DNA from: a virus
Lineage: Duplodnaviria; Caudoviricetes
Virus record (IMG/VR): IMGVR_UViG_3300027571_000004
Span: 1-64,000 of that record
Strand: one strand, 5' to 3'
DNA: 64,000 bases
Shown piece after piece: positions 11,558 to 45,800 of this stretch. The stretch's first letter is position 1, and every line of letters begins with the position of its first letter. The translations under genes were made by a program, and so were the position numbers. The notes under the pieces were generated by a model. It worked only from the letters and a program-made list of their open reading frames with translations. It was not told the origin of the DNA and made no database searches.

Positions 11558-11673
11558 TGAGTGACGAAAGAGATCAGATGTTAAAAGAAATTGCAATTGC
11601 CAAATTTGTTGAACTAGGATTTACAGAGGCAGAACTAAGAGCATTGGGGTTGAGATCAGATGGCAACAACTAG
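11557..11673 (+). CDS. 38-aa fibre-associated peptide
   Basis: MSDERDQMLKEIAIAKFVELGFTEAELRALGL; TAATG coupling. Confidence 0.6.
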   Translation: MSDERDQMLKEIAIAKFVELGFTEAELRALGLRSDGNN

Positions 11674-12289
11674 TAGCGTTGGTAAAACAGCATACATTTA
11701 TGATCAAGGTACTGATACTTGGTATCCAGTTTCTGGAACTACAAATGCAGCAGCAAATTTTGACTGGTCAGGAGCACACTCATTTGGTTCTACAGTATCT
11801 TTAAATGATGTTGTTGTATCAAAAGCAGGAGTAAATAATTTTGCAACATCAACAGTTAGAGATGCTGTAATCACCGCACCCCCTGAAGGCCTTGTTGTTT
11901 TTGTACGACAAGATGCATCAGGAAATCAAATTAATCAAATTCAATATTATCATGCTGGTAAGTGGAGAAACTATAATGACTCTTGCTGGCTTGAAACCAA
12001 AACTGCAGACTATCAAATAGTTCTTTTAGATGCTGGAAAAACAATTAGAGTTGAGTCATCGTCTAACGTAACAATTACTATTCCATCTTATGCAACAATC
12101 CCATTTGTCGTTGGACAAAAAATTGAGATTGTTAGAAAAGGTAGTGGAGAAGTATCTATCGCACCTGCAGCAGGAGTGACTCTTTATAGCAAGAATTCAA
12201 ATAGAAAAATTGCAGCACAATGGTCTGGCGCTGTTTTAGTAAAAGATGATACAAATGCATGGATTCTTATTGGCGATTTGAAAGCGTAG
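11660..12289 (+). CDS. fibre/adapter protein with a C-terminal W.L.GDL.A domain
   Basis: C-terminal ~90 aa clearly homologous to the C-terminus of 21302-23464. Confidence 0.7.
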   Translation: MATTSSVGKTAYIYDQGTDTWYPVSGTTNAAANFDWSGAHSFGSTVSLNDVVVSKAGVNNFATSTVRDAVITAPPEGLVVFVRQDASGNQINQIQYYHAGKWRNYNDSCWLETKTADYQIVLLDAGKTIRVESSSNVTITIPSYATIPFVVGQKIEIVRKGSGEVSIAPAAGVTLYSKNSNRKIAAQWSGAVLVKDDTNAWILIGDLKA

Positions 12290-12295
12290 GATCAG

Positions 12296-14332
12296 ATGCT
12301 TGGATTCCTTGGCTTATGGTCTTCATCAAAAGGTATGGTCTTAGTACCAAATCTTTCTGGACTTACACAGGCACAAGCAATTTCAGCAATACAATCAGCA
12401 GGACTGACTGTTGCCTCAATTATTTCTACAACCTCAACATCAGACTCTAATCTATCAAATAAGGTTGCACTACAAACTCCTGCATCTGGAACTCTAGTTG
12501 ATTATGAAACCACTGTTGATCTTTCTATTTATAACTATGTAGCAGTAACAACAACTACCACAACAACTTCTGGCGGTGGCAGTGGACCTGTAACAACATC
12601 AGCCCCAGTTGCAACTATAAGTAATTTAACATATACAAAAACTGGTACTACTACTGGAACTCTTTCTTGGTCTGGAAGCAATATAAATAATTATCTGTTT
12701 ACTGGAAACTCATCTTTATATCCATCACCATACAACTATGGAGCATACACTGCAACATGGCCAGGAAACCTTGTTAACTTGACTGAAGGGCAGTCTTATA
12801 CAGTCACTATAACTGTGATAAATAGTGCTGGTGCTGGAAACTCACAAACCATTACTTTTGCTCACCCAGTTGTTACTACAACTACTACTACAGTTGCTCC
12901 TACAACTACAACTACAACAACTACAACAACTGTTGCACCACTTCCAACACTACCAACACCAGTAATTCAAACATATGCTGGCTGGCAAGTTTATCCAGGA
13001 TCAGTATATGCAACATTTAACATAACTAACTTTGATTCAACATATACAACAACTTATACTTCTACTCTTGGAACTCAGAATCCCGAATTCCCCGAAGAAT
13101 TTATTGTTGAAAATTTAACACCAAATCAATCCTATACGGTTTATATAACTGCATCTAAGGATGGGTATACAAGTTCTACTGGTTCATCAACATTTACTGC
13201 AAATCCTGCAAATAATCCTACTACTACCACTACAACGGTTGCCCCTACAACAACTACAACTACCACTACAACGGTTGCCCCTACAACAACTACTACAACA
13301 ACTGCAGCACCAGCAACTGGTACAGCGTATCTATCATATTGCTTCCTCGGAACCCCTGTAGAAGAATCATATCCTGTTAATTCCGATAACACGCTTGTAC
13401 AAGATATTAACCAAGCAATTGCTGCCTACACTTCATTTCTTCAAGGTTTAAATCCTCCAGCAACAAGTATTTCGGTTTCAATAGTTTCTCAGCCTGCAGC
13501 ACCAACAAGTTGTCCACCTGTAAATACAACTACAACTACAACTACTGTAGCACCTACAACTACAACTACAACCACTGTAGCACCAGGTGCATTTACTATT
13601 AGCGGTATATCTTCAACTACAAATTCTGTAACTTATTCTTGGTCAAACCCTCCAGCAGGAACTGCATTCTATACTGTTCAATACTCTGATAATGATGCAG
13701 TCTATCCATCAGAAACAACAGGGTCAACATCTAAGACATTTACTGGTCTTGCTCCAAACACTTTACATACAGTTTTTGTTACCGCAAAAAATTCTAACAA
13801 CGGCTATTTAGCAGATGCCAGTGCTTCTATTTCTACAAGTGGTGCTGCAACAACTACCACAACCACAGTTGCTCCAACTACTACTACAACCACAGTTGCT
13901 CCAACTACTACTACAACCACAGTTGCTCCAACGACTACCACAACTACAGCATCCCCTGCAACCACGACAACGACAACAGCATCCCCTGCAACCACGACAA
14001 CAACAGGCCTTGACTGCTCTGGAAATACTTGCGATCCAGCACGAAGTTACACTGGCACAAGATCTGTTTCAACATCTGTATGTGCTTCTGGAACAATGAA
14101 CACTTATACTTGTTGGACTCCAGGAACATGCGATAATGTTACTACTGACACAGGTTGTGTTGCTACTGGTTCAACTACGACTACAACAACTGCAGCACAA
14201 GAGGTATCCAGACTTTGTACATCATTTAACGTTGCGAACCAAGACTGTGTATCTCAAGGATGCAGCAGCGGAGGTTGCGGTAGCGGTTCAATATGTACAT
14301 CAGGAGTTGAATATAGATGTGCTTACCTATAA
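12296..14332 (+). CDS. mucin-like virion protein: PASTA + three FN3-like domains + poly-Thr linkers + two 6-Cys C-terminal domains
   Basis: VPNLSGLTQAQAISAIQSAGL..QTPASGT (PASTA); NLTPNQSYTVYI and GLAPNTLHTVFV (FN3); repeated TTTTTTVAP. Confidence 0.8.
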   Translation: MLGFLGLWSSSKGMVLVPNLSGLTQAQAISAIQSAGLTVASIISTTSTSDSNLSNKVALQTPASGTLVDYETTVDLSIYNYVAVTTTTTTTSGGGSGPVTTSAPVATISNLTYTKTGTTTGTLSWSGSNINNYLFTGNSSLYPSPYNYGAYTATWPGNLVNLTEGQSYTVTITVINSAGAGNSQTITFAHPVVTTTTTTVAPTTTTTTTTTTVAPLPTLPTPVIQTYAGWQVYPGSVYATFNITNFDSTYTTTYTSTLGTQNPEFPEEFIVENLTPNQSYTVYITASKDGYTSSTGSSTFTANPANNPTTTTTTVAPTTTTTTTTTVAPTTTTTTTAAPATGTAYLSYCFLGTPVEESYPVNSDNTLVQDINQAIAAYTSFLQGLNPPATSISVSIVSQPAAPTSCPPVNTTTTTTTVAPTTTTTTTVAPGAFTISGISSTTNSVTYSWSNPPAGTAFYTVQYSDNDAVYPSETTGSTSKTFTGLAPNTLHTVFVTAKNSNNGYLADASASISTSGAATTTTTTVAPTTTTTTVAPTTTTTTVAPTTTTTTASPATTTTTTASPATTTTTGLDCSGNTCDPARSYTGTRSVSTSVCASGTMNTYTCWTPGTCDNVTTDTGCVATGSTTTTTTAAQEVSRLCTSFNVANQDCVSQGCSSGGCGSGSICTSGVEYRCAYL

Positions 14333-14738: not shown

Positions 14739-14966
14739 ATGACAAGTCGTTGGGAAGAATACAAAGCAAAAAATGGAGTAACTCCATTAGATTTGCTTAA
14801 CCCAAAAACAAAAAAAGCAGAAAAGACTTTGGGGGAGGAAAGGTTTGAGATATGCAAAGCCTGCCCAGAATTGATACAGGTAACCTCTCAATGTAAAAAG
14901 TGTGGCTGCTTCATGAAAATCAAAACAGGTCTAGAGGCAGCAACATGTCCAATCGGAAAGTGGTAG
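14739..14966 (+). CDS. small 6-Cys protein (DUF6171-like) paralog 1
   Basis: R.EICKACP...QCKKCGCFM..K.....CPIGKW. Confidence 0.7.
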   Translation: MTSRWEEYKAKNGVTPLDLLNPKTKKAEKTLGEERFEICKACPELIQVTSQCKKCGCFMKIKTGLEAATCPIGKW

Positions 14967-15862
14967 ATAGCATATTTGTTTCTATAGCATCATTCCGTGA
15001 TGCTGAATTAACAAACACCCTGTATAGTCTATTATCTCAAGCAAAAGACTTAGGCAAGATTCACGTTTGTATTTTTTCTCAGGATGAAGATGACAAACAT
15101 CCAAAACTAGAAAATCTGTTTGACCTATTTGGAGTATCAGACTACACATATAAAAAGATCAACTATGTAGATTCTTCTGGAGTAGGATACGCAAGAAATT
15201 ACATTCAAGATTTTATTAAGCCTGAGCATGACTTCTTCTTGCAAATTGATAGCCACTCAAGATTTGCTGAACACTGGGACGAGATGCTTGTTGATGATTA
15301 TAAAAAATGTTATAGTAATTGGACAAGTGAGATCATCCTGACCTCTTACCCACAAGGTTATGTTTATGATGAATATGGAAACACTTATTCTGATAAATTT
15401 GAAAGACCTACTGCAGTAAAGGGGGTAATTTCAGAAAGTGAGACACTAAGATATAACTGTAAATATACAGAGTATATTGGAGAAGATTTTGGAATGCTTA
15501 CTGGATACTTTTGTGCAGGCATGGTTTTTGGAAAAACAGAGTCTTTTTTAAATACTAGATATGATCCATGTATATATTTTAATGGAGAGGAGCAAACCCT
15601 TTCTATTAGGTTTTATGAAAAAGGGGTTAAGTTAATTGCCCCGCCAAGGAATTATATTTTTCATGATTACAGCGGTAAAAAAAGAAAAAGGCAGTGGGAT
15701 GGAGATCAAGAGGCTCACATCAAAAATGACCAGGCATCTGCTCAGAGACTGAATGATTTTTATACTGGTAATTTGGCTGACGAACGATACTCTTTAATAG
15801 ACATCTCTTCACTACAGTCCTGGATAGACTGCTTTGTAGATCAAGATCACCTAGATTCTTGA
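14945..15862 (+). CDS. GT60-like glycosyltransferase 2
   Basis: IFVSIASFRD, GVGYAR, LQIDSHSRFAEHWD, YFNGEEQTLSIRFY; start is ATG 14945 or GTG 14960. Confidence 0.8.
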   Translation: MSNRKVVDSIFVSIASFRDAELTNTLYSLLSQAKDLGKIHVCIFSQDEDDKHPKLENLFDLFGVSDYTYKKINYVDSSGVGYARNYIQDFIKPEHDFFLQIDSHSRFAEHWDEMLVDDYKKCYSNWTSEIILTSYPQGYVYDEYGNTYSDKFERPTAVKGVISESETLRYNCKYTEYIGEDFGMLTGYFCAGMVFGKTESFLNTRYDPCIYFNGEEQTLSIRFYEKGVKLIAPPRNYIFHDYSGKKRKRQWDGDQEAHIKNDQASAQRLNDFYTGNLADERYSLIDISSLQSWIDCFVDQDHLDS

Positions 15863-21301: not shown

Positions 21302-23464
21302 ATGGCAACTAGAATGCAACAGCGCAGAGGAACTGCGACACAATGGACAACAGCAAACCCAACTTTAGCCCCAGGCGAAATTGGATTCGAAACAGATACC
21401 AACCAGTTTAAAATTGGTGACGGTGTTAATCAGTGGGAAGACCTATCTTACTTCAAGAACCTTGAAGATCTAGGTGGCTCACTAGATGATTATGTCCCTC
21501 TTACTACAAAAGGCCAAGCAAATGGCGTTGCCTCTCTTAATGCTCAAGGAGTCATTCCTTCTGAGCAAATTCCTTCTCTAGTCGGCCTTGATACAGAAAT
21601 TACAACTGCTGTAAATAATGCAGTTACCGCACTTGTTGATGGCGCTCCTTTAGCCCTTAATACACTTAACGAGTTGGCAGCAGCAGTAAATGATGACGCA
21701 TCATACGCTGCATCAATGACTCTTATTACTGACCAACTAGCAGAAAATTTAAGTGATCACGAAGTAGATACTACAACACACGGCGCAACAGGAGCAGTTG
21801 TTGGAACAACTAACACTCAGACATTAACTAATAAGACAATGTCTGGTGCAAGCAATACTTTTAGCGCAATCCCACAATCAGCAGTTACTGATTTGGTTTC
21901 AGATATCTCAACAATTGAGACTGACATTACTACTATTGAAGGAAACATTTCTGGCCTAAATACTGCTGTAGGACTTCGTGCCACATCAGCAGACCCAACA
22001 TTCACAGGAACAGTTATTCTTCCAGCAACAACATCAATTGGTACACTTACTTCAACAGAACTAGGATATCTTGATGGAATTACTTCATCAGTTCAAACAC
22101 AACTAGATGCTAAAGCAGAGTCTTCTTCAATTACTGAAGCAGCACAAGAAGCAGTAAACGCTGCCCTAGTTGCGGGTACAGGATTAGACAAGACCTATGA
22201 TGATGAAGCAAATACAATTACTATTGACATAGATTCAACAGTAGCAACTAAGACTTATGCAGATAATGCAGTAACAACTCACAAAGATGCTACAACAAAT
22301 ATTCACGGCATTGTAGACACTGCAGCACTCGCAACTAAGACTTATTCGGACTCAGCAGTAAGCACACACTCTATTGATACAACAGATGTACATGGTATTG
22401 CAGATACTTCAGCACTAGCATTGACAGCGACAGTTAACACAGCGCTTGATCTAAAAGCACCCCTAGCATCCCCTACTTTTACAGGTACGGTATCTGGTGT
22501 TACTAAGACACATGTAGGCCTAGGAAATGTTGATAACACAACAGATGCACTAAAGCCAGTTTCAACTGCTACACAGACAGCACTTGATGCAAAACTTGAT
22601 TCCTTAACTGCTTCAACAACATATGCACCATTATCTTCTCCAACATTTACAGGGACTGTAACACTTCCTGCTAATACAATTTCACAATCAATGATGAGTG
22701 ACGATTCGGTTGGAACAAACGAAATTGTTGCACTTGCAGTAACAGAAGGAAAAATTGCAGACGGAGCAATAACAAACGCAAAAGTTTCAGCCACTGCAGC
22801 AATTGCAACATCTAAAATTTCAGGACTTGACACAGCCCTTGGACTACTAGCACCAATCGCTTCTCCTACTTTTACTGGCACAGTTGCTGGTATTACTAAA
22901 GGAATGGTTGGGCTTGGTCTTGTAGATAATACTGCAGATACAAGTAAGCCAGTTTCAACAGCCCAGGCTTCAGCAATTGCTACTGCTAAATCAGAAGCAA
23001 TCGCAGATGCTACATCACAAGTAAATGCTCTTCTCACAGGAGCACCAGCAGCACTCAACACTCTTGATGAGTTAGCAGCAGCCCTTGGTGATGACGCAAA
23101 CTTTGCTTCAACAGTTACAACATCACTTGCTGCAAAGACTCCAGAACTTTATACATTTACACCTGATGCAACAACAACAAGAGTTCTTGCTCTTGGCGAT
23201 AAGTTCGCATCAATTAAATTTACAGGAGCAACAGCAACAAGTATTACTGTACCAACCAACGCATCAGTAGCGTTCCCAGTCGGAACGTACATTGAATTTT
23301 ATCAATTTGGTGCAGGACAACTAACAGTAACTGCAGTAACTCCAGGAACAACATCAATTAGATCAACAGATTCTCAGAATAAGTCAAGAACTCAGTACTC
23401 ATCTATGGTTTTAGTCAAGGTAGATACTGATGAATGGCTACTTACTGGAGATCTAACAGCATAA
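21302..23464 (+). CDS. fibre protein with an Mtd/hyaluronidase-type N-terminal domain
   Basis: RRGTATQW..ANPTLAPGEIGFETDT..FKIGDG; APLASPTFTGTV and VGLGNVDNT repeats; C-terminal WLLTGDLTA. Confidence 0.8.
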   Translation: MATRMQQRRGTATQWTTANPTLAPGEIGFETDTNQFKIGDGVNQWEDLSYFKNLEDLGGSLDDYVPLTTKGQANGVASLNAQGVIPSEQIPSLVGLDTEITTAVNNAVTALVDGAPLALNTLNELAAAVNDDASYAASMTLITDQLAENLSDHEVDTTTHGATGAVVGTTNTQTLTNKTMSGASNTFSAIPQSAVTDLVSDISTIETDITTIEGNISGLNTAVGLRATSADPTFTGTVILPATTSIGTLTSTELGYLDGITSSVQTQLDAKAESSSITEAAQEAVNAALVAGTGLDKTYDDEANTITIDIDSTVATKTYADNAVTTHKDATTNIHGIVDTAALATKTYSDSAVSTHSIDTTDVHGIADTSALALTATVNTALDLKAPLASPTFTGTVSGVTKTHVGLGNVDNTTDALKPVSTATQTALDAKLDSLTASTTYAPLSSPTFTGTVTLPANTISQSMMSDDSVGTNEIVALAVTEGKIADGAITNAKVSATAAIATSKISGLDTALGLLAPIASPTFTGTVAGITKGMVGLGLVDNTADTSKPVSTAQASAIATAKSEAIADATSQVNALLTGAPAALNTLDELAAALGDDANFASTVTTSLAAKTPELYTFTPDATTTRVLALGDKFASIKFTGATATSITVPTNASVAFPVGTYIEFYQFGAGQLTVTAVTPGTTSIRSTDSQNKSRTQYSSMVLVKVDTDEWLLTGDLTA

Positions 23465-23498: not shown

Positions 23499-25226
23499 AT
23501 GCCAAGAAAAACAGGAGGAAGATCCGCAAAGGTATCTTCAAGATTAAAGGCCTTAAAGAATGTTATAGAAACATTTGTTCGTTCTGACTCTGCCAGTCTT
23601 GGCAAGACAGCAACAGGGGCTTCTTGGTCCAATGTTCGTGGATCTTGGGGTATTTCATCAAACATGGCATCGTCTTCTGATTCAGGATCATCATACCCAC
23701 TAGCAACCCTCAACTTTTCTGAACAAGATGTAACCATAACAGCCAAGGGCGTAGGCCCAGGAGTTGGAACAGCCTTTTGGGTAACAGACTCAAATAACTG
23801 GTGGGGAACATATGTTGATACAGAGCAAGTTTGTCAAACATGTTCATCTGGCGGAAACTGTTCTACTTATGGAACTGTTTTAAATCAAGCATCTACTTGT
23901 TCAACTTACGGAACTGTTTTAAATCAAGCATCTACTTGTTCTACTTATGGAACTCAAGTTAATGCTAACTCTACCTGTGCTACTTACGGAAATGTAATGA
24001 ATGTGGCACCATCTTGTTCAACTTACGGAACTGTAATGAACGTTGCATCAAACTGTGCTACATACGGAACAAACTACGGAGTAGGAAACTGTGCTTCTTA
24101 TGGTACAAACTATTCTGGTGGTAACTGTGCAGCATATGGAGTTGTTTCATACTCTGGTGGTAACTGTGCAGCATATGGTGTAACCTCTTATAGCGGTGGA
24201 GGATGTACCTCTTATGGAGTTTCTGGTTACAGTGGAGGAGGATGTACCTCTTATGGAGTTTCTGGTTACGGTGGAGGAGGATGTTCTGCTTATGGAACTG
24301 TCATGAACTCAGCAGGTGGCTGTTCAACATATGGTCAAGGCGCAGTTACTTATGGATTAGTAGCAACAGGTACACCTTACGGTGGCAGTGGTGGAAATGC
24401 TTCCCCATGTTCAAACTGTGGATCATGTCCAACAGGAACATCTTGTCGAAACCTTGGTAGACCAACTACATGTAACGCATATTCAGCAGCAGCATATGGA
24501 ATTACTTGTAACGCAACTGCTGCAACAAACGTATCTTACGGATGTACAGGATATGCTCCAACAAACGTAAACTATGGCTGTGCATCATTTGCTGCAACAA
24601 GCGCAGTATATGGATGTACTTCAACAAATGCAGTAAATCCAAACTATGGATGTACTTCAGCCAATGCAACTGTGGCCTCTACATTCTGTGCAAGCACAAA
24701 CTACACATCAGCAACTTTCTGTGCAACAGCAAATTCCGCAGTGTATGGAACTCAGTGTAATGCTAACAACGCAGCAGTATATGGCACACAGTGTAATGTT
24801 TACAACGCAACAGTCTATGGAACAGTATGTAATGCTAACAACGCAGCAGTATATGGCACACAGTGTAATGCTACCAATACAGCAGTATATGGAACTCAAT
24901 GTAATGCCACCAACGCTCTTGTATACTCAGCCTGTAACTGTGTAAATAATGACAAGGTTAAGATTATTAAAAATGTTGCGGGAACCATTTCAACAGTGGC
25001 AACCCTAGCATTTGCTGGAACAATCGCAGCAATTAAAACAGTACTATCTGGAAACTCAGTAACTGTATCAGCATATTCTAATACAGGTGCTACCACTCAA
25101 ATTGGATCAAGCCAAGCAACTACGATCTCTGGTCAAACAAAGAGCAAAGTTCATGGTATACTTAAGGGAGCAGTTACTTATGGCGCTGCTGCCACAAGTA
25201 CTATTGATCAATTTGAGGTGAGTTAA
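23499..25226 (+). CDS. virion protein: beta-sandwich-like domain split by a ~370-aa Cys-repeat insertion
   Basis: ETFVRSD..LG....W...RGSW N-half; 34 Cys between 23832 and 24941; HGI...IDQF C-half. Confidence 0.75.
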   Translation: MPRKTGGRSAKVSSRLKALKNVIETFVRSDSASLGKTATGASWSNVRGSWGISSNMASSSDSGSSYPLATLNFSEQDVTITAKGVGPGVGTAFWVTDSNNWWGTYVDTEQVCQTCSSGGNCSTYGTVLNQASTCSTYGTVLNQASTCSTYGTQVNANSTCATYGNVMNVAPSCSTYGTVMNVASNCATYGTNYGVGNCASYGTNYSGGNCAAYGVVSYSGGNCAAYGVTSYSGGGCTSYGVSGYSGGGCTSYGVSGYGGGGCSAYGTVMNSAGGCSTYGQGAVTYGLVATGTPYGGSGGNASPCSNCGSCPTGTSCRNLGRPTTCNAYSAAAYGITCNATAATNVSYGCTGYAPTNVNYGCASFAATSAVYGCTSTNAVNPNYGCTSANATVASTFCASTNYTSATFCATANSAVYGTQCNANNAAVYGTQCNVYNATVYGTVCNANNAAVYGTQCNATNTAVYGTQCNATNALVYSACNCVNNDKVKIIKNVAGTISTVATLAFAGTIAAIKTVLSGNSVTVSAYSNTGATTQIGSSQATTISGQTKSKVHGILKGAVTYGAAATSTIDQFEVS

Positions 25227-25694
25227 TTGGACGAGTATAAAAAATTATCTAAGCAGTTTAAAAAGCAAAAGAGATCTGATGCTTTGGGTCGCCTTGCTCA
25301 TAAAACTAGAAGAATAAACCCCTACCCAAGATTAAAGTATAAGTATCTTACTAAGAAAAACATTGCCCCAGATGTTTCTACTATCACTGAAAATATTGCA
25401 TTTGTAATTGATGGTCAAGTTGTAGAAATTATTCATTGTCAGCCAAAAATGGCTGCAATCCTTCTTAGTTCTCCAGAGATAGTTCAAGTCCCAGAAGGAC
25501 AGGTAATAAAGCCAGGGTTTAAATATGAAGATGGAAAGTTTGACCTTCCTGATGAGCCAACACAGCCTCAACAAGAAGATGACGACCTACCAACATTTAA
25601 AGATTATCTGAGTAGACTTAATGCTGGTTTACCACAACTACCCAAGTTATCAACTTTTAAAGATTATGTTTCAAAACTAAAAGAAAGAGTTTAG
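25227..25694 (+). CDS. VIDG-family protein (putative fibre chaperone)
   Basis: IAFVIDGQVV...AAILLSSPEIV...YEDGKF; C-terminal TFKDY repeat. Confidence 0.6.
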   Translation: MDEYKKLSKQFKKQKRSDALGRLAHKTRRINPYPRLKYKYLTKKNIAPDVSTITENIAFVIDGQVVEIIHCQPKMAAILLSSPEIVQVPEGQVIKPGFKYEDGKFDLPDEPTQPQQEDDDLPTFKDYLSRLNAGLPQLPKLSTFKDYVSKLKERV

Positions 25695-25695
25695 A

Positions 25696-26451
25696 ATGAA
25701 AAGAGTAGTATTTAATTTAGATCCTAATAGCGATCCAAGAATTATTTTACCTCCACAGCCATCAAGCCAGTTTGTTCCAGAATGGTATCGTCAAGGTGAG
25801 CGTTTTATAAATAAAGAAGATGGGTCTTTAAATATTCCAGATCCAAGTTTACGTGCAGGAGGATTAAAGTCCTGCAATCCTTTCCTTGATTCTATAATCG
25901 CTGGATATATACAACCTCTTTCATGCGCCATTGAAATTCTTAAGAATGACGGTTCAAGTAATCTTGAGTGGAGATACGTAGAACTTGATGCAAATGGAGA
26001 GTATGTTCAAGTAGAGGATATAGGCCTAATTGAAGAAAGATCAGGGTCAATTGGTCATACTGTTCCAAGACCTCATGGACATGCTCAAAACCATATGGTT
26101 TGGTCAGGGCATTGGGGATGGAAATTGCCAAGAGGATACAGCATGATTATTACACATCCAATGAATCAGTTTCAGTTGCCTTTTACAACCTCTTCAGGCT
26201 TCATGGAAAGCGATAGATTCATTGCGGGGGGTAGAATTCCCTGGTATATTAAAGAAGGCTGGACAGGTATCATTCCAAAGGGAACAGCAATGTACCAGAT
26301 AATCCCAGTAAAAAGAAAGAAGTGGCTAGGAGTTGTTCCAGTAAATGTTGTTAGCAAAAAGGGACAGTTTATAACAGTAAAAGCCAGAGAAGTTTTGTAT
26401 GGTTTTTACAGAGACAACTTATGGGTAAAAAAAGTCTATGAAATGGAATAA
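25696..26451 (+). CDS. uncharacterised enzyme-like protein (dUTPase-like beta fold suspected), paralog 1
   Basis: PEWY..K.C.PFLD...GY; P.GYS..ITHP; G.IPKGT..YQIIP.KR..W. Confidence 0.5.
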   Translation: MKRVVFNLDPNSDPRIILPPQPSSQFVPEWYRQGERFINKEDGSLNIPDPSLRAGGLKSCNPFLDSIIAGYIQPLSCAIEILKNDGSSNLEWRYVELDANGEYVQVEDIGLIEERSGSIGHTVPRPHGHAQNHMVWSGHWGWKLPRGYSMIITHPMNQFQLPFTTSSGFMESDRFIAGGRIPWYIKEGWTGIIPKGTAMYQIIPVKRKKWLGVVPVNVVSKKGQFITVKAREVLYGFYRDNLWVKKVYEME

Positions 26452-27214
26452 AAAGCCAGCAAAAAGAGTAGATACCTATACTCCTTCAGAAGAAGGCGTC
26501 ATAGAGTTCATGAATATAGATAAGCAATTTCACCTAGTTCCACAAAAAATATCTCTTCCAAAATGGTACAAAGATATGCCAGGAATAAAACAATTAGGGC
26601 CTGGACTACAAGACGATCTAACTATAAAGAAGTGTATACCAATATTAGATGCATTAACAATGGGATATTATTTAGTTACAAAAGAAGAGTATAGTTTTTC
26701 ATATGATAAAGAACTAAAGGAGTCAAAATTTATTGGTCCTGCAAAAATTATGAATGAGGAGCCAATTTCACGACATCCCATAACTCAGATCAATACAGTC
26801 TCTTTATCTCCAGAATATATTGAAGAAGCCTTTAAGTGGAAAAACTCCTGGCTAATCAAAACTCCCCCAGGATATAGTTGCCTATTTACCCACCCACTAG
26901 ATGGAATAGAAGCACCATTTAAGACCCTTGACGGGGTAGTGGACACAGATAACTTCTTTATGCCAGTGCTGTTCCCATTCTTAATGAAAAATAGTTTTGA
27001 GGGAGTAATACCAGCAGGTACACCAGTTGTTCAGATAATTCCATTTAAGCGTACAAACTGGACTATGAAAGTCAACGAAGATCTTAGCAAAGATTTAGAA
27101 ACTAACTATCATGCTGAAAAAACATTCTATATGAGTGAACAGTATAATAAAGACGGAAGCCCCAATCCAGGCAAATACAAAAGAGAATATAGGGTTAAGA
27201 AAAGATATACGTAA
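26438..27214 (+). CDS. uncharacterised enzyme-like protein, paralog 2
   Basis: PKWYK..TIKKCIPILDA..GY; TPPGYSCLFTHP; GVVDTD; IPAGTPVVQIIPFKR. Confidence 0.5.
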   Translation: MKWNKKPAKRVDTYTPSEEGVIEFMNIDKQFHLVPQKISLPKWYKDMPGIKQLGPGLQDDLTIKKCIPILDALTMGYYLVTKEEYSFSYDKELKESKFIGPAKIMNEEPISRHPITQINTVSLSPEYIEEAFKWKNSWLIKTPPGYSCLFTHPLDGIEAPFKTLDGVVDTDNFFMPVLFPFLMKNSFEGVIPAGTPVVQIIPFKRTNWTMKVNEDLSKDLETNYHAEKTFYMSEQYNKDGSPNPGKYKREYRVKKRYT

Positions 27215-42829: not shown

Positions 42830-45800
42830 TTGTCTGACGTAAATGCTAATATAGGTATTAATTTTGATACCCAGCAAGCACTTGCATCTTTACGTCAGTT
42901 ACAGGCGGGACTTAGCCGTTTCAATCAATCCCTAACACAGGGGAATATCGCTGCTGAGAATGCACAAAAGGGTTTAAATGCCCAATTGATGCAGTCTATC
43001 AATGCCACTGGAAAGTTTGTAGCATCTCAAAAAGTTGTTGCAGGCAGTACATCAGCATTTACAACAGCCTTAGAAAAGAATCAACTCTCTATGGGAGAGT
43101 ACTTTAGATTTACTGCAGCAGCAGCGACAGCAAACACTAAAGTCTTTTCTAAGATGTTTGCTCATGAACGAGACATATTTAATCGTGCTCGTAAGGATAG
43201 AGTAAAGTCTTTACAGACTCAATACATACAATTAACTAGCGCCAATGGTGAACTAGTAAAGGTTCTTCAGGTAGTTCCAAAGCACCTTCAGATGGTCAAT
43301 GGCAAGTATGCAGACTATGCTACAAGAACTCAGATGGCTGCACAAAGACAACAGATGATGAATCAGTTGCTCAAGCAAGGTTCGACTCAACTTCTAAACT
43401 TTGGTAAGAATACTCAATGGGCAGGTCGCCAGTTGATGGTTGGTCTTACAGTCCCTCTCACAATGCTTGGAGGATTTGCCTCTAAGGTTTTCAGGGAGAT
43501 GGAACAGTCAGTAATCGCATTCACAAGAGTTTATGGAGACATGACTACAAGTGGAGATGCAACTAATAAAGCAATTGCAGACATCCAAAGACTTGCAAAA
43601 GAATTTACAAAGTATGGAATCGCAGCAAAAGATACTATAGAGATGGCTGCCAAAGCAGCAGCAATGGGTTTAACTGGAAACGATTTAAATGCACAAGTAA
43701 TATCAGCAACAAGGCTTGCTGTTCTTGGTCAAGTGGAACAACAACAAGCACTCGAAACAACTATTTCTCTTCAAAACGCTTTTGGAATTTCTTCAGAACA
43801 ACTTGCAGAAAAGATTAACTTTCTTAACGCAGTAGAAAACCAGACAGTACTTTCTATTGAAGACTTAACTATTGCAGTTCCAAAGGCTGGACCAGTTATA
43901 AAGCAACTAGGTGGATCTGTAGAAGATCTTGCATTCTTTATGACTGCAATGAAGGAAGGTGGAATCAACGCATCAGAAGGTGCTAACGCACTTAAGTCTG
44001 GTCTTGCTTCTATGATTAATCCTTCTAAGAAGGCAGCAGGATTCCTTGCAGATCTTGGTATCAACATAAAGGGTCTTGTTGAAGCAAACGCTGGAAACCT
44101 TAAAGGAACAGTCATTGGTTTTGCAAAAGCACTTGACACACTAGATCCACTAAATAGAGCAAGAGCAATTGAACAAATGTTTGGTAAGTTCCAATTTGCT
44201 CGTCTATCAACATTATTTCAAAACGTAACAAAAGATAGTTCTCAGGCTGCTAGAGCACTTGGACTTGCTGGAGCATCAGTTGAAGAATTAGCAATCTTAT
44301 CTGAGAGAGAACTTGGAAAAGTAGAAGATGCTGTTGGAGTTAAATTCCAAAAAAGTATTGAACAATTAAAATTAGAACTCATTCCAATTGGAAAGACATT
44401 CCTACAAGCGCTAACACCAGTAGTTGAATTTCTTGGTAAGATTTTAGCGAAGTTTAATAACTTTAGCGATGGAACTAAAAAGGCTTTTGCAATTATTATT
44501 GGAGTTGTAGGGGGACTTGCCCCAGTTGCACTGATGACATTTGGTCTATTCATGAACGCTATTGCAAACGGCATTAAGTTATTTGCTGCCCTTCGTAGTG
44601 GAATGGCAAAACTAAATGGTCAGAACAATGTACTAGGTGGAGGATTTGATTACCTTACACAACAAGAGATTGAACAACTAGCACAGACTAACGCCCTTCA
44701 CACATCTCACCAACAATTAATTAGCACATTTAATGTGGAGTCTGGAGCAGTTAATGCTCTTGCTGCAGCCTATGCAAATGCAGCAAGCCAAGCAAGAACT
44801 CTTGCAGCATCATCACCAGGATTATTTAATACAGTTCCAGGACCAGTAGGCGCAGTTGCAGGTTTACCACCTGTTCAAAAGTTTGCAAAAGGCGGAGTTG
44901 TTCCAGGTACAGGAAATAAAGACACCGTACCTTCAATGCTTACTCCTGGAGAAGTTGTACTAACTACAGATACTGTAAAAAAGAATCCAGAACTTGTTGC
45001 AGCACTTCTTACTGGCACTGTAAAGAAGTATGGTACAAGTACTCAGTCTGAAGGTGGAGGAATGAAGCCTCCTAAACTAGGCATAGCAAGTGTTACAGAA
45101 ATGATGTCTATGGGTATAGATGATTTTGCAGCAGAGATTGGAAAACTTGGAAAAGGTGCTTCTCAAGCAACAGCCATTGCAGAAGTTAAGTTAGAATTAA
45201 CTAAAGCGACAGACCGTGCAGGAGAAGATATGGCAAATGCAATTAAAAGAATGCTTGCAGAAGCAGCACAGTCTGTTGAAAAGGTATCTGCTGATTGGGT
45301 AAAAAATAGAGCAAAAGATATTAATCCAGAAACTGGGGAACAGTGGAGAGCGCCATATGCAAATACATCTTCAACACCATGGCAGCCAAGTGATCCAGCA
45401 AGAGCACAAGTAGAACCAGGCGGTAGATATGTTGCTGCTCACATGGAAGCACCAAAGCCAAAGATTACAGACAAAGCCGAGTTAGAACGTCTTGCAGTTC
45501 TTGCTGGAAAATCAGGCCTAGGCGAAGCCCTTGCTCTCGCAGCAAAACATGGTGGCTCTGCAACACCAATGGGCAGTTTTACAGCGATGCTTCCAGAAGA
45601 AGCAAACAAAACAACTGCTTTAAATTTGTCTGACCCTAACGATGTAGCGATCCACTCTCAACTTGCAGCAAGAAGAGGGTTAGCGCCAGCACAATTTTCT
45701 GGTGACGATGCAAAAGTATTTGAAATGCCTAAGTCTGGAATACAGGATTTATTTAGTGGAGAAGATGCAGGTAAGTCTCTTTCTCCAGTAATGAGAGAAA

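What the first reader, a model, noticed from the sequence alone, without database searches (positions are those of the whole stretch)
23832..24941. Mirror-symmetric cysteine ladder: a stalk-and-knob insertion with 13+13 matched repeats
Seen: CQTC, then 13 Cys spaced 12-13 aa, a central CSNCGSCPTGTSC knob (24408-24446), 13 Cys spaced 11-12 aa, then CNC. Repeat subtypes mirror exactly. Outgoing: 5x YGTVxN, 2x YGTNY, 4x YGVxxY, 1x YGTVMN. Returning: 1x YGIT, 4x YG-C, 2x TF-C, 5x VYGTQ/V. Inference: the arms pair as one long antiparallel hairpin, up to roughly 45-50 nm if extended, cross-linked by 13 disulfides. It would project a knob from a beta-sandwich base, like bovine ultralong CDR-H3 on a much larger scale. 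Growth would need matched duplications at two distant DNA sites.
Basis: partly seen in the sequence, partly recalled or inferred. Interest (0 to 1): 0.88.

Follow-up and report, generated by a model that had tools for sequence, protein, structure and literature searches.

The report
Cysteine-laddered hairpin stalk on phage lectin
A tail-fibre-cluster protein of an uncultured phage is a sugar-binding-type beta-sandwich from which a 370-residue loop runs out and back as two complementary repeat arms whose cysteines match one for one, a probable disulfide-runged probe for host recognition that I could not find described in print.

Summary
ORF 23499-25226 (575 aa) holds 34 Cys, all between residues 112 and 481: CQTC, 13 Cys spaced 12-13, a 4-Cys tip, 13 Cys spaced 11-12, then CNC. 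The repeat types mirror as 5-2-4-1 against 1-4-2-5.

The mirror is a family property. Of 218 full-length relatives, 214 have an even Cys count. Rung lengths on the two arms correlate at r = 0.70 in mirrored register, against 0.00-0.18 in slid or same-direction controls.

AlphaFold2 models the two flanks with high confidence (pLDDT above 90) as one ConA-like lectin sandwich. Its nearest structures are CBM66 and actinophage receptor-binding modules. The stalk itself is not predicted (pLDDT below 50), even in a short relative.

The gene follows a tail fibre gene, and this order recurs in 53 of 80 viral loci.

Disulfides, the extended geometry and the function are inferred, not shown. The knob is not hypervariable: it is a cassette shared with distant relatives, while the closest relatives carry another tip.

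Six literature searches found no description. This scan has already reported the same design on other DNA.

The parts
23499..25226 (+). Whole gene, 575 aa plus stop: lectin-fold base with inserted two-armed Cys stalk
   Evidence: ORF list. 77 relatives. 339 cluster representatives at E<=1e-3. No Pfam, PHROG or NCBIfam family.
23499..23831 (+). N-terminal half of the base domain (residues 1-111), no Cys
   Evidence: AF2 pLDDT 95-98 for residues 21-110. Together with the C-terminal half it aligns to ConA-like CBMs: 4b1m Z 16.1, 9n6a Z 15.0, 8zdo_a Z 14.5.
23832..23843 (+). Base clamp, out side: C112-Q-T-C115
   Evidence: CxxC...CxC or CxC...CxxC frames the insert in 146 of 218 relatives. AF2 block means for this part of the strand are pLDDT 97 (residues 101-110) and 89 (111-120).
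23859..24323 (+). Out arm: 13 Cys (C121..C275), 12 units of 12-13 aa, types a x5, b x2, c x4, a x1
   Evidence: Tandem DNA period 39. Units 121/134 are 94% and units 236/249 are 97% identical in DNA.
24324..24407 (+). Distal out-arm segment (residues 276-303) leading into the tip
   Evidence: Together with the tip it is conserved in P0041, P0016 and P0014.
24408..24446 (+). Four-Cys tip (C304, C307, C310, C316)
   Evidence: Tip type shared with P0041 (29 of 48 residues identical) although the bases are only 51% identical.
24447..24470 (+). Tip exit segment (residues 317-324) holding the only two charged residues of the insert (R317, R321)
   Evidence: The motif C-[KRQ]-N-[LIVM]-G is found in 5 of 218 relatives.
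24471..24902 (+). Return arm: 13 Cys (C325..C468), units of 11-12 aa, types d', c' x4, b' x2, a' x5 read tip to base
   Evidence: DNA periods 36 and 72. Units ending at C432 and C456 are 100% identical in DNA.
24933..24941 (+). Base clamp, return side: C479-N-C481
   Evidence: AF2 pLDDT 91 for residues 471-480.
24942..25226 (+). C-terminal half of the base domain (residues 482-575) and stop
   Evidence: AF2 pLDDT 90-98. VIA alignments run to residue 575.
21302..23464 (+). Upstream tail fibre gene (720 aa). Its last ~90-120 aa recur directly upstream of the ladder gene in relatives.
   Evidence: Mtd_N at E 2.7e-14. 44 PHROG families matched, and most of the 25 shown are tail or tail-fibre families. 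A match is found in 53 of 80 viral loci; in most of these it is the C-terminal domain lying just upstream of the ladder gene, in a few it lies elsewhere in the locus.
25227..25694 (+). Small downstream protein (155 aa), conserved neighbour, function unknown
   Evidence: Found in 38 of 80 loci. No family match.
25696..27214 (+). Two paralogous phrog_7084 / DUF6065-like genes (251 and 258 aa), conserved neighbours, function unknown
   Evidence: phrog_7084 at E 2.4e-26 and 8.6e-41. Found in 61 and 60 of 80 loci. DUF6065 scores 20.9 bits, below its cut-off of 26.6.

Best explanation
This is a virion tail protein of receptor-binding type from an uncultured siphovirus-like phage, probably of a Gram-positive (actinobacterial) host.

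Its two flanks (residues 1-111 and 482-575) form one ConA-like carbohydrate-binding sandwich. Between two neighbouring strands of that sandwich, the chain leaves as an out arm, turns in a small four-Cys tip, and comes back as a return arm. The two arms lie side by side, antiparallel and in register. Each out unit faces a return unit of the complementary type and of equal length (within one residue). Each rung is pinned by one Cys from each arm, most likely as a disulfide that forms once the virion is in oxic water.

Nested pairing would give 17 bonds: 2 at the CxxC/CxC clamp, 13 rungs and 2 in the tip. The result would be a thin, uncharged, covalently braced probe rich in Tyr, Asn, Thr and Gly. 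Its length is set by the number and size of the rungs, and its tip is an exchangeable cassette. It would serve host-surface recognition together with, or projecting from, the glycan-binding base.

Shown: the sequence anatomy, the family-wide arm matching, the predicted base fold and the gene neighbourhood.

Inferred: arm-to-arm pairing, disulfide chemistry, extended shape, oligomeric state and function.
For: Anatomy and mirrored types.

Parity: 214 of 218 full-length relatives have an even Cys number.

Register:
- Mirrored rung lengths correlate at r = 0.70 over 1753 rungs, against 0.00-0.17 when slid and 0.18 in same-direction order.
- 54% of 1977 rungs agree within one residue, against 27-38% when slid and a shuffle mean of 605 and maximum of 650 against 1068 observed.
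- Arm lengths correlate at 0.955.
- Relatives with very uneven rungs keep register throughout. L003 has 17 of 17 rungs with 9 different lengths. P0001 runs 7, 18, 7, 12, 18, 13... and is mirrored. P0124 has an offset of 0 at every rung.

Complementary unit types hold whichever arm carries them. In P0003 the 10-aa out type faces the 10-aa return type in both orientations, and a self-complementary unit faces itself. P0001 rung 6 has the two types swapped between arms.

Close relatives (80% base identity) have 11, 15 and 17 nested pairs, and their arms stay matched.

Base fold:
- AF2 pLDDT is above 90 for 190 residues.
- VIA-align gives CBM66 Z 16.1, TM4 gp23 receptor-binding domain Z 15.0 and Douge 8zdo_a residues 116-308 Z 14.5.
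- That Douge module is the BppU carbohydrate-binding module, reported to bind the M. smegmatis surface and arabinomannan fragments (PMC13033339, passages read).
- BFVD matches, after family members, are minor tail proteins of Gordonia, Arthrobacter, Rhodococcus and Streptomyces phages.

AF2 continues the sandwich strands into the first rungs as a beta-hairpin: E101-129 with E463-493, pLDDT 78-91.

Context:
- A tail fibre gene lies directly upstream, and its C-terminal domain recurs in 53 of 80 loci.
- The window also holds a portal, a protease, a capsid protein and a 3408-aa tape measure.
- The portal is 44.6% identical to those of Streptomyces phages.
- A PASTA-domain protein lies in the same window.

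The insert has 2 charged residues in 370 and no His.
Against: - There is no structural support for the stalk. AF2 pLDDT is below 50 for residues 133-457, and also for the stalk of the 333-aa relative P0055.
- No solved or Pfam family matches the stalk.
- Many rung lengths are odd (5, 7, 11, 13), and some arms differ systematically by one residue per rung: 13 against 12 here, 4 against 5 in P0092. A regular two-stranded beta-ribbon with a disulfide at every rung cannot accommodate this without bulges.
- A residue-level test for aromatic-opposite-small pairing in the mirrored register gave no signal: 0.143, against 0.15 for random same-length partners.
- Only 47 of 183 relatives with 12 or more Cys beat 99% of their own shuffles. 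Many shorter relatives have Cys patterns with CC doublets that nested pairing does not describe well.
- Four relatives have odd Cys counts.
- The protein is made in a reducing cytoplasm, and no sulfhydryl oxidase was found in the record. That search was uninformative because its controls did not ring.
- Function and host are inferred from fold and neighbours only.
Confidence: 0.6

Rival explanations
1. Compact stacked form. The arms are still paired, but each unit is a short layer (beta-roll or solenoid-like, about 0.5 nm rise per rung), so the insert is a rod or knob of roughly 7-10 nm and not a 50-60 nm filament. The Cys still link the arms.
For: - In this protein the units are nearly uniform (12-13 and 11-12 aa), close to the coil sizes of small beta-solenoid antifreeze proteins (recalled).
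- One relative's return arm (P0045, residues 294-355) matches Pfam PF21300, the grass antifreeze beta roll, at 30.2 bits against a cut-off of 30.
- The composition is rich in Thr, Asn, Gly and Tyr and has no charge.
- Odd rung lengths are no problem for this model.
Against: - Only 1 of 73 members scanned matches PF21300. The near-identical-type proteins P0032, P0047 and P0029 do not, and neither does the query.
- Relatives mix rungs of 7 and 18, or of 9, 12 and 21 residues, within one stalk, and others have rungs of 4-5 residues. None of these can form stacked coils of one size.
- The rule that rung lengths match across arms while varying along the stalk (r = 0.70) is a geometric necessity for side-by-side extended arms, but is unexplained for stacked layers.
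- AF2, which usually recognises solenoids, gives no confident model.
Confidence: 0.17
2. Metal-braced oligomer. The matched Cys do not form disulfides. Instead, in a dimer or trimer, they bind metal ions level by level, as the His-Fe sites brace the out-and-back needle of the T4 long tail fibre tip.
For: - T4 gp37 has a needle domain inserted in domain D10 (residues 811-881 and 1010-1026) with seven iron atoms along it, bound by His of the three chains (PMC6957217, passages read).
- Phage fibres are usually trimers (established knowledge).
- The CxxC/CxC clamp resembles a four-Cys metal site (inference).
- Metal sites could form in the reducing cytoplasm.
Against: - Two Cys per level and chain give six thiolates per level in a trimer, an unusual ligand set.
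- There is no His, Asp or Glu in the stalk to complete sites.
- Rungs with CC doublets facing Cys six residues apart (P0032, P0041) look like disulfide knots.
- The oligomeric state was not tested.
Confidence: 0.06
3. Local loops. Each Cys bonds its neighbour on the same arm, giving a string of 12-13-residue disulfide-closed loops. The arms need not touch.
For: - An even total Cys count is also compatible with neighbour pairing.
- Loops of 10-13 residues closed by a disulfide are common (established knowledge).
Against: - Neighbour pairing does not explain equal rung numbers, mirrored rung lengths or mirrored unit types.
- Each half of this protein holds 17 Cys, an odd number, so at least one bond must cross the middle.
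Confidence: 0.05
4. Disordered low-complexity linker. The insert has no fixed structure, and the Cys pattern is a by-product of tandem repeat expansion.
For: - AF2 pLDDT is 33-49 throughout the stalk.
- The composition is of low complexity.
- The DNA is tandemly repeated, with units up to 100% identical.
Against: - Independent repeat expansion in two arms that share no DNA similarity (33-63% identity; no inverted repeats) would not keep counts, lengths and types mirrored in 188 distinct patterns.
- It would also not keep the Cys number even in 214 of 218 relatives.
Confidence: 0.05

Closest known systems
ConA-like carbohydrate-binding modules in phage receptor-binding proteins: CBM66 (PDB 4b1m), TM4 gp23 C-terminal receptor-binding domain (9n6a), Douge BppU carbohydrate-binding module (8zdo chain a)
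   Same: The predicted base is the same beta-sandwich: Z 16.1, 15.0 and 14.5 with 147-169 residues aligned. It sits in a tail gene cluster of a phage whose portal is nearest to actinophage portals.
   Different: - Sequence identity is 8-17% and there is no Pfam hit.
- None of these carries a long Cys-rich insertion between two strands.
- Sugar binding by this base is untested.
T4 long tail fibre tip, gp37 needle (domain D11 inserted in D10)
   Same: It is an out-and-back elongated element inserted in a base domain of a phage fibre tip, braced at regular levels and used for receptor contact (PMC6957217, passages read).
   Different: - The braces there are His-Fe sites shared by three chains. 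Here there is no His, but paired Cys.
- There is no sequence or fold match.
- Trimerisation here is unknown.
- The base fold differs.
Cystine ladders of small peptides (theta-defensin type; recalled, no paper read)
   Same: Two antiparallel strands with Cys at mirrored positions, forming parallel cross-strand disulfide rungs.
   Different: - Those have three rungs two residues apart in an 18-residue cyclic peptide.
- Here there are 13 rungs (17 pairs in all), 11-13 residues apart, in a 370-residue insert of a 575-aa protein.
- The bonds here are not demonstrated.
Bovine ultralong CDR-H3 'stalk and knob'
   Same: A two-stranded stalk with a distal Cys-containing mini-domain, projecting from a beta-sandwich. 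Those CDRs reach up to 70 aa (PMC5994613 abstract) or more than 50 residues, with stalk length critical (PMC8602281 abstract; both from the listing).
   Different: - There the disulfides are in the knob and the knob is the diversified part.
- Here 30 of 34 Cys are in the stalk and clamps, the stalk is the most variable part, and the tip is a conserved cassette.
- This insert is about five times longer, sits in a non-Ig base, and has no somatic or DGR diversification.
Beta-solenoid antifreeze proteins (Pfam PF21300 grass antifreeze beta roll; insect 12-residue Cys-containing beta-helices, recalled)
   Same: Short Thr/Asn/Gly-rich tandem units of 12-15 residues with regularly placed Cys. One relative's arm touches PF21300 at its cut-off.
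   Different: - The query has no match.
- It has one Cys per unit, not two.
- It has two arms that must return to the same base.
- Rung lengths vary from 4 to 21 within the family.

Membership tests
ConA-like lectin/glucanase-fold carbohydrate-binding module | Two-sheet jelly-roll beta-sandwich of about 150-220 residues | tested here: met
   AF2 model of the flanks, pLDDT above 90. VIA-align gives Z 16.1 (4b1m, rmsd 2.5, 147 aligned), 15.7, 15.0 and 14.5, and 108 chains score Z>=8. This rests on a predicted model only. Foldseek on the whole model gave no hit at E<=0.001.
ConA-like lectin/glucanase-fold carbohydrate-binding module | Sequence membership in a curated family | tested here: not met
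   0 Pfam, 0 PHROG and 0 NCBIfam families for the 575-aa protein.
ConA-like lectin/glucanase-fold carbohydrate-binding module | Binds a glycan | not testable with these tools
   Needs glycan arrays or cell-wall binding assays, as done for Douge BppU-CBM (PMC13033339).
Cystine ladder | Cys at mirrored positions on two antiparallel segments | tested here: met
   Nested offsets stay within -4 to +7 over 15 rungs. Family-wide mirrored correlation is 0.70. That the segments are antiparallel follows from chain topology: an insert must leave and return to one base.
Cystine ladder | Cross-strand disulfide bonds actually formed | not testable with these tools
   An even Cys count in 214 of 218 relatives is indirect support only.
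Bovine-type stalk-and-knob insertion | Disulfides confined to a diversified distal knob on a Cys-free stalk | tested here: not met
   30 of 34 Cys lie in the arms and clamps. The tip type is conserved in relatives whose base is 51-57% identical.
T4 gp37-type needle | Out-and-back insert in a fibre-tip base domain | tested here: met
   The insert lies between residues 111 and 482 of one predicted domain.
T4 gp37-type needle | His-metal braces shared by three chains | tested here: not met
   No His in the 370-residue insert. The oligomeric state was not tested.
Beta-solenoid / beta-roll repeat protein | Coils of one constant length stacked along an axis | tested here: inconclusive
   The query's units are nearly constant (11-13 aa). 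However, close relatives mix 7-, 12-, 13- and 18-residue rungs, and others use 4-5 residues. PF21300 is matched by 1 of 73 members, at its cut-off. AF2 gives no confident solenoid.
Diversity-generating retroelement target protein | Reverse transcriptase and template repeat in the same genome | tested here: not met
   RVT_1 gave 0 matches in the 92,289-base record, which is estimated 85% complete. The Mtd_N hit is on the upstream fibre's N-terminus only.

The most novel reading that the evidence does not exclude
The stalk is a self-registering protein zipper. It is built from a small alphabet of repeat units that pair only with a complementary unit on the opposite arm (a with a', b with b', c with c', and some units with themselves). 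Each pair is locked by one disulfide, giving a covalently runged filament about 1-2 nm thick and 50-60 nm long.

Because the distal part of a hairpin is contiguous in the gene, phages can lengthen, shorten or re-tip the probe in single recombination events without losing register. This would be a length-programmable reach for receptors buried under a host's surface layers, and a new natural scaffold for building rigid nanoscale rods.
Probability: 0.3. Interest if true: 0.85.

Novelty: new variant of a known kind. Interest (0 to 1): 0.68.

Why it matters
Receptor-binding proteins decide which hosts a phage can infect. For the abundant uncultured phages of aquatic bacteria they are almost unknown.

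This family has 339 cluster representatives at 50% identity and is encoded on 129 viral contigs. It shows a way of building a long projection that matches no Pfam family or solved sequence and that AlphaFold2 does not model with confidence. Two arms made of different repeats are kept complementary in number, length and type, most likely as a ladder of up to 23 disulfide pairs in the longest relative.

If the extended model holds, it would be among the longest two-stranded covalently braced protein elements known. It would also be a clear case of co-evolution between two distant segments of one gene. A structure would tell how rungs of 4 to 21 residues fit one design.

Tried and rejected
- Whole-protein tblastn, a 10-kb megablast and tblastn of the N-terminal 115 aa against 50,697 phage records gave no match. 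Records near the window's own genome may be left out of that collection.
- Foldseek of the full model against PDB gave nothing at E<=0.001. The base fold came only from VIA-align.
- The ESM Atlas gave no usable hit for the stalk.
- phmmer of the stalk against PDB sequences gave only griffithsin at E 0.8-9.5, which is not significant.
- Two AF2 jobs were run, on the query with 73 sequences and on the short relative P0055 with 140 sequences. Both left the stalk below pLDDT 50, so no Cys-Cys distances could be read.
- Complex prediction was run on residues 116-190 against residues 405-478. It returned no answer (score 0.00, mark 0.34). This is no evidence either way.
- The residue-level idea that Tyr faces Gly/Ala/Ser across the arms was tested on 517 equal-length rungs and rejected. 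The frequency was 0.143 in register, 0.09-0.15 when slid, and 0.148 with random partners.
- Matched ages of duplications were not found. The youngest out-arm pairs (94% and 97% DNA identity) face return units that are only 83% and 69% identical. Local gene conversion or unequal timing is therefore likelier than simultaneous duplication.
- A DGR was rejected.
- A DNA palindrome was rejected.
- Search for a sulfhydryl oxidase: Evr1_Alr found nothing, but its controls rang nowhere, so this is uninformative. Two thioredoxin-fold ORFs lie at 84.8-85.4 kb of the record, far from this gene.
- Host from cellular genomes: one hit only, on a 12-kb contig of a MAG labelled Bacteroidetes. This is not usable as host evidence.
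- Reads: contigs of two DNA runs and two lake-water RNA libraries cover the gene (30, 27, 30 and 27 of 30 bins). RNA-library contigs do not prove transcription.
- One DNA contig skips 72 nt, equal to two return-arm units. The skip lies inside a perfect 72-nt tandem repeat, so I read it as assembly collapse and not as an unequal-armed variant.
- Literature: six searches listed no paper describing this family or a Cys-laddered phage stalk. In one search only the 15 best of 3,591 papers were seen, and none of those used the ladder terms. Supplements were not consulted.
- The second Cys-rich protein of the window (12296-14332) is not of this kind: 14 Cys with no mirror.
Full report
**1. What is in the sequence.**

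The finding lies in one open reading frame, window 23499-25226 on the plus strand, 575 aa. The 205 flanking residues have none.

The order of the cysteines is as follows:
- C112-Q-T-C115.
- Thirteen Cys from 121 to 275, with spacings 13x5, 12x2, 13x5.
- A 29-residue segment.
- Four Cys at 304, 307, 310 and 316 (24408-24446).
- Thirteen Cys from 325 to 468, with spacings 12x6, 11, 12x5.
- C479-N-C481.

Typing the units by simple patterns gives, from base to tip, a a a a a b b c c c c a on the out arm and a'x5, b'x2, c'x4, d' on the return arm. The 5-2-4-1 / 1-4-2-5 mirror is therefore real. The lone distal return unit d' keeps its Tyr four residues before the Cys, as the a' units do, so even that rung follows the a:a' rule.

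The insert is 92% Thr, Gly, Ala, Ser, Asn, Tyr, Val and Cys. It has two charged residues, both beside the tip, and no His.

The mirror exists only in the protein. There are no inverted DNA repeats. The arms are 33-63% identical in DNA, which is about background.

**2. Is it more than chance?**

Within this one protein the spacings are so uniform that a shuffle test is weak. 13 of 16 nested spacings agree within one residue, against a shuffle mean of 8.6 and maximum of 12. The mirrored block pattern is 1 of 165 possible partitions. The decisive evidence is comparative.

The sequence set:
- A word-indexed search found 77 relatives.
- An exhaustive HMMER search found 339 cluster representatives at E<=1e-3, of which 138 were at E<=1e-10.
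- 129 viral contigs encode a relative, and 80 loci were fetched.
- From these I took 218 distinct full-length proteins that have the conserved N-terminal motif, both flanks and at least 6 Cys.

The results:
- 214 of the 218 have an even number of Cys. The four odd ones are P0004, P0015, P0058 and P0148.
- I paired the first Cys with the last, the second with the second-last, and so on. The distance between successive Cys on the out arm then correlates with the mirrored distance on the return arm at Pearson 0.70 (Spearman 0.62). This covers 1753 rungs from 188 distinct spacing patterns. The correlation is 0.00-0.17 when the return arm is slid by one to three rungs, and 0.18 when it is read in the same direction.
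- 1068 of 1977 rungs agree within one residue, against 605 on average and 650 at most in 200 shuffles, and against 27-38% when slid.
- Arm lengths correlate at 0.955.

Results against the reading:
- The pattern is not universal. Only 47 of 183 proteins with 12 or more Cys beat 99% of their own shuffles.
- Many shorter relatives have denser patterns with CC doublets that simple nesting describes poorly.

**3. The most telling relatives.**

L003 comes from a contig whose ribonucleotide reductase is 86% identical to the window's. It has 36 Cys and rungs of 17, 17, 17, 14, 18, 18, 9, 12, 9, 12, 21, 13, 11, 10, 13, 13, 9 residues. The return arm answers with 16, 16, 16, 14, 19, 19, 10, 11, 10, 11, 21, 13, 11, 9, 14, 13, 9.

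P0001 and P0002 have bases 80% identical to the query. They have 15 and 11 nested pairs against the query's 17. In all three the arms stay in step, with offsets within a few residues along the whole stalk. So rungs have been gained or lost on both arms between close relatives.

Unit types are complementary whichever arm carries them:
- In P0003, five out units of one 10-aa type face five return units of a second 10-aa type.
- Further up the stalk, two units of the second type on the out arm face two of the first type on the return arm.
- An 11-residue two-Cys unit faces a copy of itself.
- In P0001, rung 6 has the usual out and return types exchanged.

Other relatives use rungs of 5+5 (P0066, 13 in a row), 8+8 (P0070) or 4 against 5 (P0092).

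**4. What the flanks are.**

AlphaFold2 with a 73-sequence alignment gives pLDDT above 90 for 190 residues. These cover essentially residues 20-130 and 460-575, which form one all-beta domain. Residues 133-457 are below 50.

- Foldseek on the whole model found nothing significant.
- VIA-align against 48,161 chains gave CBM66 (4b1m) at Z 16.1, the lectin domain of galactocerebrosidase at 15.7, the TM4 gp23 C-terminal receptor-binding domain (9n6a) at 15.0, and Douge baseplate chain 8zdo_a residues 116-308 at 14.5. Many ConA-like lectins and glucanases followed.
- The Douge segment is the carbohydrate-binding module of BppU. The authors report that it binds the M. smegmatis surface and arabinomannan/lipoarabinomannan fragments (PMC13033339, passages read).
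- A second model, of the 333-aa relative P0055, matched in BFVD first six uncharacterised proteins of uncultured Caudovirales. It then matched minor tail proteins of Gordonia, Arthrobacter, Rhodococcus and Streptomyces phages.

The base is thus a ConA-like sandwich of the kind that actinophage tail proteins use to bind glycans, on the strength of a predicted structure. No sequence family covers it.

AF2 extends the two sandwich strands into the first rungs as a hairpin: strands 101-129 with 463-493, pLDDT 78-91. This is the only structural hint for the stalk.

**5. Surroundings.**

The window belongs to a 92,289-base viral record estimated 85% complete. It encodes:
- a portal, a prohead protease and an HK97-type capsid protein;
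- a 3408-aa tape-measure-like protein and further tail proteins;
- a ribonucleotide reductase.

The portal is at best 44.6% identical to portals of Streptomyces phages, and 127 of 248 matching records are Streptomyces phages. A neighbouring structural protein carries a PASTA domain. PASTA is a domain of Gram-positive cell-wall proteins (established knowledge). Together with the fold matches, this makes an actinobacterial host plausible but unproven. The only hit in cellular genomes is a short MAG contig.

Directly upstream lies a 720-aa tail fibre gene: Mtd_N at its N-terminus and many tail-fibre PHROGs. In the 80 viral loci:
- The fibre matches in 53; in most of these it is the C-terminal ~100 residues, lying just upstream of the ladder gene, and in a few the match lies elsewhere in the locus.
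- A small downstream protein recurs in 38.
- The two paralogous phrog_7084/DUF6065-like genes recur in 61 and 60.

The function of these neighbours is unknown. Their other relatives are in haloarchaeal tailed viruses.

**6. The tip.**

It is not, in the sense of a rapidly mutating patch.
- The query's tip and the segment before it recur in P0041, with 29 of 48 residues identical. They recur in P0016 and P0014 as well. The bases of these three are only 51-57% identical to the query's.
- P0001 and P0002, with 80% base identity, carry a different tip.
- L003 has no knob at all, only a 10-residue turn.
- No reverse transcriptase is present.

Tips therefore behave as exchangeable cassettes. The most variable part of the family is the stalk. 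The insert ranges from 41 to 475 residues with a median of 149; the query's 370 is near the top.

**7. How it most likely works.**

Topology forces the insert to leave and re-enter the base at adjacent strands, so the arms are antiparallel. Three rules hold: equal numbers, equal rung lengths and complementary types. They hold even where rung length changes from 7 to 18, or from 9 to 21, along one stalk. These rules are what one expects if the two arms run side by side over their whole length, so that each segment must span the same distance as its partner.

One Cys per arm per rung, plus the near-absolute even count, points to a cross-arm bond at every rung. For a virion protein released into oxic water, the simplest such bond is a disulfide.

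With 163-192 residues per arm, a fully extended form would be roughly 52-65 nm. This is an upper bound.

I rate this model at 0.6. The steps from 'matched' to 'paired', from 'paired' to 'disulfide', and from there to 'extended' are inferences.

Against a textbook beta-ribbon:
- Many rungs have odd lengths.
- One arm is often one residue longer per rung: 13 against 12 here.
- My residue-level test for aromatic-over-small pairing failed.

**8. Rivals.**

- A compact layered or beta-roll form (0.17). It is suggested by the uniform 12-13-residue units here, and by a single relative's arm touching Pfam PF21300 at its cut-off. It does not explain why rung lengths match across arms yet vary along the stalk, nor the 4-5-residue rungs.
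- Metal bracing in an oligomer, by analogy with T4 gp37 (0.06). It lacks suitable ligand sets.
- Neighbour disulfide loops (0.05). These do not explain the mirror.
- Disorder (0.05). This does not explain the mirror either.

**9. Evolution.**

The youngest duplicates in one arm are not mirrored by equally young duplicates opposite them:
- Out units at 121/134 are 94% identical in DNA, and those at 236/249 are 97% identical.
- Return units ending at C432 and C456 are 100% identical, within a 72-nt period.
- The units facing the two young out-arm pairs are only 83% and 69% identical to each other.

So local conversion, or stepwise gain followed by compensation, is likelier than simultaneous events. 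P0015, with one extra return unit and 37 Cys, could be such an intermediate or an assembly error.

Because the distal hairpin is contiguous in the gene, one deletion or exchange can shorten or re-tip the stalk without breaking register. P0004 looks like a deletion between the two copies of a self-complementary unit, leaving five out units facing five return units. It comes from a single contig, so it may be an artefact.

**10. Presence elsewhere.**

Near-identical sequence is held by runs labelled marine metagenome and lake water metagenome, including RNA libraries. Contigs from two DNA runs and two RNA libraries cover the gene. This shows presence, not transcription.

**11. Novelty.**

- No Pfam, PHROG or NCBIfam model, no solved sequence and no ESM Atlas cluster describes the stalk.
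- Six full-text searches listed no description.
- Earlier notes of this same scan describe the same design in at least eight other genomes, with the same reading. Another note on this window points out the fibre/Cys-protein/small-protein/enzyme gene order. These are unchecked AI notes. I took from them the gp37 comparison, which I then read up, and the idea of swappable tips, which I tested.
- I class the finding as a new variant of a known kind: a lectin-fold phage receptor-binding protein with an undescribed stalk architecture.

Noticed in passing
window 12296-14332 (+): A 678-aa protein with an N-terminal PASTA domain (E 1.8e-10), an fn3 domain, several long poly-Thr linkers and a C-terminal stretch with 12 Cys in about 100 residues. 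It follows a short fibre-like gene (11660-12289) whose C-terminus resembles that of the 720-aa fibre. PASTA hints at a Gram-positive host.
   Followed up: partly
window 25696-26451 and 26438-27214 (+): Two overlapping paralogous genes of phrog_7084 / weak DUF6065. They lie next to the ladder gene in 61 and 60 of 80 viral loci. Their other relatives are in haloarchaeal tailed viruses (HF1, HRTV, HCTV). No function, no solved relative and no paper mentions DUF6065.
   Followed up: partly
window 25227-25694 (+): A 155-aa protein conserved just downstream of the ladder gene in 38 of 80 loci. A similar small protein follows the other Cys-rich protein at about 14345. It is a possible assembly factor, with no family match.
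   Followed up: partly
window 42830-53056 (+): A 3408-aa protein with a PhageMin_Tail domain, presumably a very long tape measure. This implies an unusually long tail.
   Followed up: no
window 14900-15862 (+): A GlcNAc-type glycosyltransferase (PF11397, E 1.4e-41) inside the fibre region. It might glycosylate the Thr-rich structural protein next to it.
   Followed up: no
G000 84847-85397 (outside the window; loci L082, L083): Two adjacent thioredoxin-fold ORFs (E 6e-19 and 6e-9). They more likely serve the ribonucleotide reductase than disulfide formation in the stalk.
   Followed up: no
window 24756-24827: One contig of DNA run X5 skips exactly 72 nt, equal to two return-arm units. This would leave 13 out-arm against 11 return-arm rungs. 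The skip lies in a perfect 72-nt tandem repeat, so assembly collapse is likelier than a real variant.
   Followed up: partly
P0045 residues 294-355 (a relative, not the window): The return arm of this relative reaches Pfam PF21300 (grass antifreeze beta roll) at 30.2 bits, with a cut-off of 30. Three proteins with the same kind of 15-residue units do not reach it.
   Followed up: partly
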